UHGV virus genome: UHGV-1701501
Source: a virus
DNA length: 17,293 nt
Reading direction: 5' to 3' (one strand)
Below, one piece after another: positions 11,975 to 13,912 of the stretch. The notes below the pieces were generated by a model that saw only the letters and a list, made by a program, of their open reading frames with translations, made no database searches and had not been told where the DNA came from. The position numbers were made by a program, and so were the translations under genes. Every line of letters begins with the position of its first letter. Positions within the stretch are counted from its first letter, which is position 1.

Positions 11975-13912
11975 TCAGCCGCCGGACGCACTGCCGTAGT
12001 TCACTCCGGTGATCACCGCCACCGCCGCGGTACGGCGACGACGCCAGTTGATCCAGCGCTCCGCACGGATGGCCACGCTGCCGGTCTGGAACATGGAAAC
12101 CAGCTCCACCGGCGACGGTGTGGTGCTGTCGCCGCCCGGCTCAGACTGCATTTCCAGTGACGCTTCACGGGACATATCCACTGCCACACCGCCGTCATCC
12201 GCCAGATAAATATCCGGGGCATTCACCAGCACCAGCTGGTCACCCACGTACTGGGAGACAATCACCGGCAGCCCCTGGAAGGAGCCACCCAGCAGGGTCA
12301 TGTCCGGGTATTCCTTCTGACCCAGCGCATTTTTACGCATGGACAGTGCCAGGGCATTGGTGCTGGACATCAGCCAGACCGCACCGGTGGGCTGCAGGTT
12401 TGCTGCCACAAACTGTCCAAACGCGGCCTCGGCATCCGCATCCGGGTTACCGGTTGATGCCGTGCCCTTCACATCATGGGTGATGGACGCCGGGGAGACA
12501 TCTGCCACTGCGGCTTTTTTCGGGTCCACAAAGTCTGTGTCCAGACGCGCCACCACCGCTTCTGCCAGCGCATTACGGACCAGCGCATCAGCTGCCGGAC
12601 TGGAAAAACGGATCAGCTCTTCCGTCAGTACCGCAATGGCCGACACCTTCGCATGACTGAAGGTGATGGACTCAAAATCAAACTTCGTCAGGGGTCTGGC
12701 CTTACCCTCCCCCACCCAGCCGGCAGCACCGCCGGACACCTGGGCATGCACGCGGATATTGAACGGCACCTGACGAAGTGCAGGGATCCCGCCCTGACCA
12801 AATCGCCCGATAATGGTCTGCGGACGCAGGTAATCAATAAAGTCCTGCGCATATTCCTGATATTCAGACAGGCTGCCTGCCCACTGTGGGTCCGTGGTGG
12901 TCCCTGCCCCCACCGCCGATTTCAGGACATGATGCAGACGACTGTCATCCGGATACTGACGACGGGCCACTTCCAGGGCTTCAGAGCGGACACCTTTAGC
13001 CGCGGCCAGTGATTTGGCAAAGCGGGCGAAACCAATCCCCTTCTCCAGTTTCTGCTCAACACGGATCACCGGCGCTGAAGCCACCGTGGCCACATTCCCG
13101 TTACCGGCCTGTTTCACCGGCTGTGCCGTGGCAGCCTTACTGGTTTCCAGTTCACGCAGACGCTTCAGGTGCGCATCCACCTGACGGATTTCCGCTGCGG
13201 TGTTGTCGTAGTGCTCTTCCTCTTCCACATCCAGTGTGCGGCCTTCCTCTGCGGCTTTGTTCATGATCTCCTCAAGGGAGGCTGCCAGCGCCGCACGCTT
13301 GTTTTCAAAACTTTTAATCTGTTCACCAGTATTCATTGCTGACTTTTCCTTATGAAAAGAGGTTATTGACTGTGCCGCAGCGCCGGCAGAAGATGCGATT
13401 TTCACCACCGGTTTCCGGTTGCCGGACGCGGCAGAAAACGGGCGGTCGAAAGATTTAATGGTCCGGATGGTGCATTCCGCATTCGCGGGCACGGTGACGG
13501 CAGACACCTCCATCAGCTCCCAGCGCAGAAAATGCAGTCCGCCTCCGTCCAGAAAGGTGTATTCATGGGGACGGAAGCCCACGGACAGCCCCCTGACCAG
13601 CCCGGTCTTAATGGCCGCCCAGACCTCATCCAGCCGGGCAGCCAGTTGCGACGGCATATCCGGTACGGGCTTCACCAGCATTGCCGTGATTTCCAGCCCT
13701 TCGCTGACCCGGCGTACCGTACACTGCCCCACCGGGCGGGAATGGTCATGCTGCCAGAGAAACGGGATCGCACTGCCAAACTCCGCGCCCTCCGGCTCCA
13801 GGATGTCACCATCCCGATCCGGAGAAGGCGTTGACGCAATCCCGGTGATCACCCGTTCATCCTCACTGAAGGATTTCACCGTCAGCAGGGAACAGGCCCG
13901 TTTAAGAGTCAC
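11975..13912 (-). CDS. Fused prohead protease / major capsid protein (HK97 family), 645 aa
   Basis: N-terminal about 160 aa resemble HK97-type prohead protease (…ITGIASTPSPDRDGDILEPEGAEF…); a charged coiled-coil linker (…LEEIMNKAAEEGRTLDVEEEEHYDNTAAEIRQVDAHLKRLRELE…); C-terminal about 350 aa resemble an HK97-fold major capsid protein; GTG start at 13912 preceded by AGGAGG. Confidence 0.85.
   Translation of the reverse strand: MTLKRACSLLTVKSFSEDERVITGIASTPSPDRDGDILEPEGAEFGSAIPFLWQHDHSRPVGQCTVRRVSEGLEITAMLVKPVPDMPSQLAARLDEVWAAIKTGLVRGLSVGFRPHEYTFLDGGGLHFLRWELMEVSAVTVPANAECTIRTIKSFDRPFSAASGNRKPVVKIASSAGAAAQSITSFHKEKSAMNTGEQIKSFENKRAALAASLEEIMNKAAEEGRTLDVEEEEHYDNTAAEIRQVDAHLKRLRELETSKAATAQPVKQAGNGNVATVASAPVIRVEQKLEKGIGFARFAKSLAAAKGVRSEALEVARRQYPDDSRLHHVLKSAVGAGTTTDPQWAGSLSEYQEYAQDFIDYLRPQTIIGRFGQGGIPALRQVPFNIRVHAQVSGGAAGWVGEGKARPLTKFDFESITFSHAKVSAIAVLTEELIRFSSPAADALVRNALAEAVVARLDTDFVDPKKAAVADVSPASITHDVKGTASTGNPDADAEAAFGQFVAANLQPTGAVWLMSSTNALALSMRKNALGQKEYPDMTLLGGSFQGLPVIVSQYVGDQLVLVNAPDIYLADDGGVAVDMSREASLEMQSEPGGDSTTPSPVELVSMFQTGSVAIRAERWINWRRRRTAAVAVITGVNYGSASGG

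What the first reader, a model, noticed from the sequence alone, without database searches (positions are those of the whole stretch)
11975..13912. Single 645-aa ORF fusing prohead protease, linker and HK97-fold major capsid protein, placed upstream of the portal
HK97 itself has separate protease and capsid genes in the order portal, protease, capsid. Here one ORF carries a protease-like N-terminus, a charged coiled-coil linker and a capsid-like C-terminus, and it lies between the large terminase and the portal. I recall such fusions being annotated in some enterobacterial prophages, so this is unusual rather than new. It implies every capsid subunit carries its own protease/scaffold, raising questions about processing site and stoichiometry. 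The GTG start is also worth confirming.
Basis: partly seen in the sequence, partly recalled or inferred. Interest (0 to 1): 0.45.

Follow-up and report, generated by a model that had tools for sequence, protein, structure and literature searches.

The report
Protease-capsid fusion gene, probable internal start
This is a real and already annotated head gene of Shiga-toxin-type E. coli prophages that puts the capsid-maturation protease, the scaffolding domain and the HK97-fold capsid protein in one reading frame. A conserved internal ribosome-binding site suggests the capsid protein is also made on its own, so probably not every subunit carries a protease.

Summary
The ORF exists as described, on the minus strand at 13912..11975: 645 aa, GTG start, AGGAGG 5 nt upstream. 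Profile and structure searches confirm an S78/HK97-gp4-type serine protease (residues ~17-152; H55 and S110 invariant; assemblin fold), a disordered linker (153-190), a helical delta/scaffolding domain (195-262 and beyond) and an HK97-fold capsid protein. It lies between TerL and the portal.

It is not new. Copies 95-99% identical occur in 1252 of 5426 complete E. coli genomes and in Stx1a/Stx2c phages, including phage 2851. The family is PHROG 617. More than 140 sequence clusters, each under 50% identical to the others, share the architecture, and similar fusions are published.

What I add is untested. An in-frame ATG (M193; GTG in one relative) preceded by an AAGGA-type Shine-Dalgarno is conserved in all 23 fused loci examined, down to 34% identity. 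It sits in the least GC-rich and least structured stretch of the gene. It aligns with the true start of stand-alone capsid genes in relatives whose protease and capsid genes are separate.

The likeliest mechanism is nested genes, as in lambda C/Nu3 or herpesvirus UL26/UL26.5: a minor protease-capsid fusion plus a major capsid protein.

The parts
11975..13912 (-). Full ORF, 645 aa + stop: protease, linker, delta domain, HK97-fold capsid protein; GTG start at 13912..13910
   Evidence: (PHROG 617 full length, E 3.8e-260)
13918..13923 (-). Shine-Dalgarno AGGAGG of the full-length product, 5 nt before the GTG
   Evidence: sequence; duplex energy with the anti-SD -10.3 kcal/mol
13457..13864 (-). Prohead serine protease domain (residues ~17-152). 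Catalytic His55 is at 13750..13748 and Ser110 at 13585..13583
13337..13456 (-). Disordered, length-variable linker (residues 153-192). Its last ~15 codons are A-rich and carry the internal ribosome-binding site
   Evidence: pLDDT <50 over 153-190. It is the most variable part of alignment A1. Length ranges 13-172 residues, median 38, across representatives
13346..13351 (-). Internal Shine-Dalgarno-like AAGGAA (codons K188-E189), 9 nt before the internal ATG
   Evidence: AGGA/GAGG is kept 6-11 nt upstream in all 23 fused loci although the encoded residues differ
13334..13336 (-). Internal in-frame ATG (M193), the proposed start of the stand-alone delta-MCP product (453 aa)
   Evidence: ATG in 22 and GTG in 1 of 23 fused loci. 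It aligns with the real start of separate MCP genes. 128 of 141 fused representatives have a Met there
12920..13336 (-). Delta (scaffolding) domain, residues 193 to ~331: helices 195-223 and 229-262, then 293-331. The C-terminal boundary is inferred
   Evidence: AF2 model. TIGR01554 begins at residue 204, model position 3. The boundary rests on a weak alignment to the HK97 gp5 K103|S104 site
11978..12919 (-). Presumed mature HK97-fold capsid protein (residues ~332-645)
13924..13951 (-). Terminator-like GC hairpin plus T-run between TerL and the fusion gene. Context, not part of the ORF
   Evidence: It is conserved in position, with different stem sequences, in 25 of 26 related sequences
13976..15637 (-). 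Large terminase, upstream neighbour
   Evidence: TerL_ATPase + TerL_nuclease
10399..11763 (-). Portal protein, downstream neighbour
   Evidence: PF04860 268 bits; TIGR01537 362 bits

Best explanation
The ORF is the head-maturation cassette of an HK97-like lambdoid (Stx-type, Pankowvirus-like) prophage. The ancestrally separate, adjacent protease and capsid genes have merged into one reading frame, and the capsid gene has kept its own translation start.

Two co-terminal proteins are predicted:
- A full-length product of about 70 kDa (protease, linker, delta, MCP) from the GTG at 13912.
- A product of about 49 kDa (delta-MCP) from the internal ATG at 13336.

Delta-MCP would be the bulk building block. 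Its N-terminal helical delta domain acts as the built-in scaffold, as in HK97. A minority of subunits would be the fusion. It would co-assemble through its MCP and delta parts and so carry the protease into the procapsid on a covalent tether. That tether would replace the non-covalent C-terminal targeting tail of a free HK97-type protease.

After shell assembly, the Ser110/His55 protease would remove the delta domains. The cut is probably near K331|S332. It would also free and digest itself, leaving mature MCP of about 314 residues.

Shown here: the ORF, both folds, the catalytic residues, and conservation of the fusion and of the internal start signals. Inferred: use of the internal start, the ratio of the two products, incorporation of the fusion into the shell, and the cleavage site.

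For: The fusion is real and under selection.
- It is intact in 1249 of 5426 E. coli genomes and in 93 phage records at 95-99% identity, including phage 2851.
- Lengths of 644-648 aa recur across Salmonella, Enterobacter, Klebsiella and Serratia.
- About 141 of the best 150 representatives, each from a different 50%-identity cluster, are full-length fusions.

Internal start.
- All 23 fused loci, from 98% down to 34% identity, have ATG (GTG in Reyranella) at the column of M193. AAGGA, AGGGA, GGAGG or GAGG lies 6-11 nt upstream.
- The encoded residues and the codon phase of that motif vary (KEKSA, KGNNT, KGKN, TGNNL, QEVNK, KEGKN).
- M193 is the only start-codon column with 100% start codons plus 100% SD where the SD is not explained by invariant residues.
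- The 60 nt around it fall in the lowest 2% for GC in 21 of 23 loci and are less structured than at least 97.8% of windows in 21 of 23.
- 128 of 141 fused representatives have a Met within the 10 residues before the delta helix, against 21% for random windows. Nine of the other 13 have Val in a V-K/N context. K is enriched at -5/-4 and G/E at -4/-3.
- In relatives with separate genes, the MCP starts exactly at this aligned Met: Snodgrassella (MTIEEQI) and Acidovorax (MNLQEQIK). Burkholderia phage vB_SBP39 also has separate, adjacent protease and MCP genes.
- An unrelated Gram-positive fusion, Lactococcus phage Q54 orf21, has AGAGGA plus ATG at its protease/coiled-coil junction.

Precedent. Nested protease/scaffold genes are known in lambda and HSV-1 and were shown by Ribo-seq in HFTV1.
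Against: There is no expression, ribosome-profiling or proteomic evidence for either product, and I found none in the searchable literature.

The upstream start has the stronger SD (-10.3 against -6.2 kcal/mol here; means -8.8 against -5.9). The fusion therefore need not be the minor species.

SD-like sequences can arise as a by-product of Gly and Glu codons. M580 shows this.

The A-rich linker could be selected for flexible Lys/Asn/Thr residues. M/V with an upstream K-G/E could in principle be a protease autocleavage motif, although the variable spacing argues against that.

Some apparently stand-alone MCP representatives (P0201, P0234, P0256, P0261) could be gene-calling or contig-end artefacts, and I could not inspect their contigs.

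The K331|S332 cleavage site rests on a 3-bit alignment.
Confidence: 0.68

Rival explanations
1. Polyprotein only. Translation starts only at the GTG, and every subunit is made as protease-delta-MCP. The protease then cuts itself off, in cis or after assembly. M193 and the upstream K-G/E residues would be a relic of the former gene start or part of an autocleavage site.
For: The reading frame is open and conserved through the linker in more than 140 clusters. The upstream SD is strong. Published descriptions of similar fusions (MD8 gp5, Arthrobacter clusters AM/AU/AN) treat them as single-gene products. Conserved short motifs in the linker, AAxG and PGxxG/AGATA, could be cleavage sites.
Against: A relic would not keep a start codon (Met, exchanged essentially only for Val/GTG), an SD at variable codon phase and spacing, a GC minimum and a structure minimum from 98% down to 34% identity. 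A cleavage motif should keep fixed spacing to the scissile bond, but K-to-M spacing varies from 3 to 6 residues. One protease domain of about 17 kDa per subunit is several-fold more than I recall for HK97. That figure is from memory, because the papers were not held.
Confidence: 0.25
2. Artefact or decay. The protease and capsid genes are really separate, and the single ORF comes from a sequencing error or from a stop-codon loss or frameshift in a defective prophage.
For: Many O157-type prophages are defective. The neighbouring portal region does show a homopolymer-length difference between records.
Against: The identical ORF structure is present in 1249 complete E. coli genomes, in inducible phages such as 2851 and many Stx1a/Stx2c phages, and in distant genera at 644-648 aa. 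The frame is maintained across a hypervariable linker.
Confidence: 0.02
3. The internal start is used, but the full-length fusion never enters the shell. It would be only the way the protease is synthesised and would release free protease by autocleavage in the linker before assembly. Free protease would then be encapsidated non-covalently, as in HK97.
For: Conserved AAxG and PGxxG motifs lie between the protease domain and the RBS region. They also occur in the C-terminal tail of the free Acidovorax protease.
Against: The fused proteins lack the 60-80-residue C-terminal tail of HK97 gp4, because the gp4 alignment stops at residue 157 of the query and about 163-166 of gp4's 225 residues. I recall from Duda et al. 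2013 that this tail mediates encapsidation; that paper was not held. Separate-gene relatives have longer tails (234 aa in Snodgrassella).
Confidence: 0.05

Closest known systems
Phage 2851 gp60 (YP_009909243) and RefSeq 'phage major capsid protein' of EHEC lambdoid prophages (e.g. WP_133394910); PHROG 617
   Same: 97-98% identical protein, same 1938-bp CDS, same neighbours: HNH, TerS, TerL, fusion, portal.
   Different: Nothing substantive in this gene. Those records annotate one product only and do not mention an internal start.
HK97 gp4 (S78 prohead protease) plus gp5 (delta domain + MCP)
   Different: HK97 has two genes placed after the portal, and its protease has a C-terminal tail of about 60 residues. 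Here there is one ORF placed before the portal, and the tail is replaced by a linker of about 40 residues. The delta region appears longer (about 139 against 102 residues). The HK97 cross-link residues K169 and N356 align with R406 and E587, on a weak alignment.
Nested protease/scaffold genes: lambda C/Nu3, HSV-1 UL26/UL26.5, HFTV1 gp17/gp17.5
   Same: A long product carrying the protease and a more abundant, co-terminal short product from an in-frame internal start. The covalent link delivers the protease into the procapsid.
   Different: In those systems the nested product is a separate scaffolding protein. Here it would be the scaffold-capsid protein itself. Internal initiation here is predicted, not demonstrated.
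Other published protease-MCP fusions: Pseudomonas phage MD8 gp5, Arthrobacter phage clusters AM/AU/AN, Rhodococcus RRH1, thaumarchaeal proviruses, Lactococcus phage Q54 orf21
   Same: Protease, scaffold-like region and HK97-fold MCP in one gene. Q54 also shows SD plus ATG at the junction.
   Different: These are distant or unrelated in sequence. I saw no discussion of an internal start in the passages I read.
NCBIfam NF045541 'prohead protease/major capsid protein fusion protein'
   Same: Same domain order, with a partial match to residues 49-263.
   Different: The score is 53.6 bits against a cut-off of 525, so this is a different fusion family.

Membership tests
Peptidase S78 / HK97 gp4-type prohead serine protease | Match to the family profile above the curated cut-off | tested here: met
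   PF04586 scores 33.7 bits against 21. A 150-sequence profile matches HK97 gp4 with 55 bits. TIGR01543 scores 45.2 bits, below its equivalog cut-off of 59.
Peptidase S78 / HK97 gp4-type prohead serine protease | Catalytic His and Ser (HK97 gp4 H65 and S114) present | tested here: met
   H55 and S110 align to H65 and S114. They are two of only five invariant columns in 120 diverse sequences. The identity of the HK97 catalytic residues is from memory of Duda et al. 2013.
Peptidase S78 / HK97 gp4-type prohead serine protease | Herpesvirus-assemblin-like fold | tested here: met
Peptidase S78 / HK97 gp4-type prohead serine protease | Proteolytic removal of the scaffolding domain in proheads | not testable with these tools
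   Needs biochemistry.
HK97-family major capsid protein with delta domain (TIGR01554 / PF05065) | Profile match above cut-off | tested here: met
   TIGR01554 scores 80.4 bits against 27.5, covering residues 204-584. PF05065 scores 53.5 against 24.2.
HK97-family major capsid protein with delta domain (TIGR01554 / PF05065) | HK97 fold (A and P domains, spine helix, E-loop) | tested here: met
HK97-family major capsid protein with delta domain (TIGR01554 / PF05065) | N-terminal helical scaffolding (delta) domain removed at maturation | tested here: inconclusive
   Long helices at 195-262 with pLDDT about 96. The profile aligns from residue 204 at model position 3. Removal and the K331|S332 site are inferred only.
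HK97-family major capsid protein with delta domain (TIGR01554 / PF05065) | Lys169-Asn356 isopeptide 'chainmail' residues (a feature of HK97 itself, not of the whole family) | tested here: inconclusive
   On a weak alignment, K169 corresponds to R406 (K in most homologues) and N356 to E587.
Nested (in-frame, co-terminal) protease/scaffold gene pair, lambda C/Nu3 type | In-frame internal start codon with a ribosome-binding site, conserved among relatives | tested here: met
   plus Q54.
Nested (in-frame, co-terminal) protease/scaffold gene pair, lambda C/Nu3 type | Two protein products actually made, the short one in excess | not testable with these tools
   No expression data were available. Literature searches found none.
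NCBIfam NF045541 protease/MCP fusion family | Score above the family cut-off (525 bits) | tested here: not met
   53.6 bits, partial match.

The most novel reading that the evidence does not exclude
Protease-MCP 'fusion' genes of tailed phages may generally be nested gene pairs rather than obligate polyproteins. The capsid gene would keep its own conserved ribosome-binding site inside the fused frame. The protease:capsid ratio would then be set by two competing initiation sites, and the protease would be delivered as a covalently tethered capsid subunit. This would extend the lambda C/Nu3 and herpesvirus UL26/UL26.5 principle to the capsid protein itself. It would apply to more than 140 sequence clusters in Proteobacteria and, independently, to a lactococcal phage. 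I found no description of it in the literature I could search, and current annotation shows a single product.
Probability: 0.35. Interest if true: 0.55.

Novelty: already known. Interest (0 to 1): 0.33.

Why it matters
The gene itself is ordinary. It is one of the commonest head genes in EHEC prophages, and its fused architecture is catalogued.

It would also mean that databases mis-describe thousands of such genes as encoding one protein.

There would be practical consequences:
- The mature and precursor capsid species expected in Stx-phage proteomics would be about 34, 49 and 70 kDa, not 70 kDa alone.
- The linker/RBS region would be a natural place to tune protease dosage.
- The N-terminus of the delta domain would be a proven site for targeting cargo into HK97-like shells.

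Tried and rejected
1. AlphaFold with the shallow 17-sequence alignment A1 gave pLDDT 42 and was discarded. It was repeated with 120 diverse sequences.
2. hhalign of A1 against HK97 gp5 gave nothing. A 150-sequence HMM gave only a 3-bit alignment, so the cleavage-site and cross-link mapping is tentative.
3. A sequence search of PDB chains gave only weak MCP hits. Fold searches were needed.
4. The sigma-70 promoter scan of 11600-14200 found none, so there is no sign of a separate internal transcript.
5. Key papers were not held: Liu & Mushegian 2004, Duda et al. 2013, Veesler et al. 2014 and Fortier et al. 2006. Statements about HK97 protease copy number and the C-terminal targeting tail therefore rest on memory.
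6. All ten full-text searches found fusions and nested protease/scaffold genes but nothing on an internal start in a protease-MCP fusion. That is absence in this library only.
7. I considered programmed frameshifting or readthrough in the split-gene relatives. Their protease and MCP genes are in different frames, separated by a stop and 17-23 nt, so I found nothing to suggest it.
8. I considered M580, which is also preceded by an SD-like sequence, as a second start. I rejected it because the SD there is forced by the invariant DDGGVAVD residues and it lies deep inside the folded MCP.
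Full report
OBSERVATION. The window carries a late (head and tail) operon entirely on the minus strand. Its genes in order are:
- HNH endonuclease (16852..16487)
- TerS (16197..15634)
- TerL (15637..13976)
- the ORF in question (13912..11975)
- a 73-aa ORF (11930..11709)
- portal (11763..10399)
- a 299-aa repeat protein (10402..9503)
- head-tail connector, head closure protein and tail genes

Pfam, NCBIfam and PHROG matches support these assignments.

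The ORF is 645 codons with a GTG start, and AGGAGG lies 5 nt upstream. No in-frame ATG lies upstream. RefSeq and the phage 2851 record use the same start. Orthologues in other genera begin with ATG at the aligned position. The observation and the GTG start are confirmed.

WHAT IT IS. Profile matches place a Peptidase_S78 domain at 48-152 and an HK97-family capsid protein from residue 204 to the C-terminus, all above curated cut-offs. PHROG 617 covers residues 1-639 with E 3.8e-260.

A first AlphaFold run on a shallow alignment failed with pLDDT 42. A second run on 120 diverse homologues gave mean pLDDT 83.7. It shows these segments:
- a beta-rich domain at 17-152 (pLDDT >90)
- a disordered segment at 153-190
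- two long helices at 195-223 and 229-262 (pLDDT about 96)
- a low-confidence segment at 271-282
- helices at 293-331
- another low-confidence stretch at 334-349
- a well-predicted C-terminal domain

HK97 gp4 aligns to residues 20-157. Its H65 and S114 fall on H55 and S110. These are two of only five invariant columns among 120 sequences that are 36-53% identical to the query.

The real linker is 153-192.

HOW COMMON. Copies at 95-99% identity occur in 1252 of 5426 complete E. coli genomes, with up to seven places per genome. They also occur in 93 phage records: Stx1a-, Stx2a- and Stx2c-converting phages and phage 2851.

Fusions of 644-648 aa at 73-77% identity are found in Salmonella, Enterobacter, Klebsiella, Serratia, Pantoea and Kosakonia. 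An exhaustive search of 1.84 billion cluster representatives gave 1173 hits below 1e-30. About 141 of the best 150 are full-length fusions.

The viral structure library also holds full-length matches, for example from Lactobacillus phage SA-C12 and Lactococcus phage Q54. The literature describes S78-MCP fusions in Pseudomonas phage MD8, Arthrobacter phages, Rhodococcus RRH1 and thaumarchaeal proviruses. NCBIfam even has a model named for such a fusion, although this protein does not belong to it. The fusion is therefore already known.

GENE ORDER. The order TerL, protease, MCP, small ORF, portal is shared by distant relatives whose protease and capsid genes are separate. These are Snodgrassella (L026, L029), Acidovorax (L025) and the isolated Burkholderia phage vB_SBP39. 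The displacement relative to HK97 (portal, protease, MCP) is a clade feature and predates the fusion. I recall that Liu & Mushegian (2004) catalogued such displacements, but the paper was not held.

THE NEW POINT: A CONSERVED INTERNAL START. In alignment A1, M193-N194 is invariant although it directly follows the most variable stretch of the protein. I extracted the DNA of 23 fused loci spanning 98% to 34% identity: the window, phage 2851, 17 Enterobacterales loci from the genome scan, Candidatus Phlomobacter, Reyranella, a Burkholderiaceae MAG and Candidimonas.

- Every locus has ATG at this column. Reyranella has GTG, which would encode Val in the long product.
- Every locus has an AAGGA, AGGGA, GGAGG or GAGG motif 6-11 nt upstream.
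- The residues encoded there differ (KEKSA, KGNNT, KGKN, QGK, TGNNL, KEHT, KEGKN, QEVNK, KEND), and the motif shifts codon phase.

Among all alignment columns, M193 is the only one that is 100% start codon and 100% SD-positive without the SD being forced by invariant amino acids. The other SD-positive Met, M580, follows the invariant DDGGVAVD.

The 60 nt around the internal ATG fall in the lowest 2% of windows for GC in 21 of 23 loci (38% against 60% for the ORF here). They are less structured than at least 97.8% of windows in 21 of 23.

At the protein level, 128 of 141 fused cluster representatives have a Met within the 10 residues before the delta helix, against 21% of random windows. Nine of the remaining 13 have Val in a V-K/N context. 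Lys is enriched at -5/-4 and Gly/Glu at -4/-3, which is the footprint of AAG-GAG or AAA-GGA codons.

In the split-gene relatives the capsid gene starts at exactly this aligned Met: MNLQEQIK in Acidovorax and MTIEEQI in Snodgrassella, against MNTGEQIK here. Several stand-alone representatives begin at query residues 193-197.

An independent Gram-positive fusion, Lactococcus phage Q54 orf21, has AGAGGA followed by ATG at its protease/coiled-coil junction.

MECHANISM. The simplest reading is a nested, co-terminal gene pair. The protease-delta-MCP product (about 70 kDa) starts at the GTG, and the delta-MCP product (about 49 kDa) starts at M193. This is the logic of lambda C/Nu3, HSV-1 UL26/UL26.5 and, as shown by Ribo-seq, HFTV1 gp17/17.5. 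The difference is that the nested product here is the scaffold-bearing capsid protein itself.

The fused proteins lack the tail of about 60 residues that follows the catalytic domain in HK97 gp4, because the alignment ends at residue 157 of the query and about 163-166 of 225 in gp4. Split-gene relatives keep longer tails. This fits a covalent tether replacing non-covalent targeting.

The ratio of the two products cannot be derived. The upstream SD is stronger (-10.3 against -6.2 kcal/mol) but sits in a more structured context next to a hairpin, whereas the internal site is open. The E. coli clade uses GTG for the long product where all other genera use ATG. That would be consistent with lower output of the long form.

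A weak alignment puts the HK97 maturation site NK|SLGSDADSAGSL opposite LK331|S332AVGAGTTTDPQWAGSL, and the AF2 confidence dip at 334-349 fits this. That would give a delta region of about 139 residues and a mature protein of about 314 residues. This is inference only.

RIVALS. A polyprotein-only model remains possible at about 0.25. Under it, the Met and the SD are relics or a cleavage motif. It does not explain why start-codon identity, an SD of variable phase, low GC and low structure persist to 34% identity. An artefact or pseudogene is excluded by the population and cross-genus data.

VERDICT. The finding is real, correctly located and correctly interpreted as a protease-scaffold-capsid fusion ahead of the portal. 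It is an already known and very common gene.

The stoichiometry puzzle is probably resolved by a conserved internal translation start. Current annotation does not show this start, and I could not find it described. It is well supported by comparative evidence but unproven experimentally.

Interest is modest at 0.33. The nested-gene reading, if both true and unpublished, would merit about 0.55.

Noticed in passing
window 13924-13951 (- strand); also L003-L030 about 15-25 nt upstream of the protease(-MCP) start: A terminator-like GC hairpin plus T-run (GAACCGCTCCGGCGGTTTTTTTATTTT) sits between the TerL stop and the SD of the fusion gene. An equivalent hairpin with different stem sequences is present in 25 of 26 related sequences, including beta-proteobacterial ones; only Reyranella lacks it. 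The HK97 record also annotates a 'putative terminator' directly upstream of gp4. Its function is unknown. It could be a terminator read through by antitermination, or an mRNA processing or stability element.
   Followed up: partly
window 10399-10425 (- strand); L001 and L002 about 9480-9500: The portal (454 aa) and the following 299-aa ORF are separate here and overlap by ATGA. In phage 2851 a G6 run replaces the G5 run about 20 nt upstream and fuses them into one 859-aa 'portal'. RefSeq flags the G5 form in strain CFSAN027343 as a 'frameshifted' pseudogene. Acidovorax has two separate ORFs, so the separate form may be the native one and the fused form a sequencing error or a slippage variant.
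   Followed up: partly
window 9503-10402 (- strand): The 299-aa protein downstream of the portal has tandem repeats of about 54 aa (IPVPRDGRDYDPDVLQ.AV.DAV...). Its C-terminal domain gives a weak CBM_5_12 hit (E 2e-4, below cut-off). The window copy lacks 324 nt, two repeat units, relative to phage 2851 and CFSAN027343. A homologue with PxPKDG repeats follows the portal in Acidovorax (L025 8781-9851). It may be a head decoration or fibre protein; the function was not established.
   Followed up: partly
window 11709-11930 (- strand): A 73-aa ORF (phrog_829, unknown function, E 1.6e-38) lies between the capsid gene and the portal and overlaps the annotated portal start by 55 nt. A small ORF occupies the same position in Burkholderia phage vB_SBP39 (58 aa) and Acidovorax (105 aa).
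   Followed up: no
window residues R406 (12695-12697) and E587 (12152-12154) of the fusion ORF: On a weak alignment, the HK97 chainmail cross-link residues K169 and N356 correspond to R406 and E587. Position 406 is Lys in most non-E. coli homologues. This capsid may not be cross-linked in the HK97 manner.
   Followed up: partly
window 13376-13440 (residues ~158-180 of the fusion ORF): Within the otherwise variable linker, the short motifs AAxG and PGxxG/AGATA are conserved across 120 diverse fusions. They also occur in the C-terminal tail of the free Acidovorax protease. They may be autocleavage or docking motifs.
   Followed up: no
L021 (Arsenophonus endosymbiont), 4980-5198: The homologous ORF is interrupted by a stop after 72 codons, presumably prophage decay in an endosymbiont genome.
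   Followed up: no
L034 (Lactococcus phage Q54 orf21), residue M144: An unrelated Gram-positive protease-MCP fusion (517 aa) has AGAGGA plus ATG exactly at the junction between the protease domain and the coiled-coil region. This suggests the nested-start arrangement may be general.
   Followed up: partly
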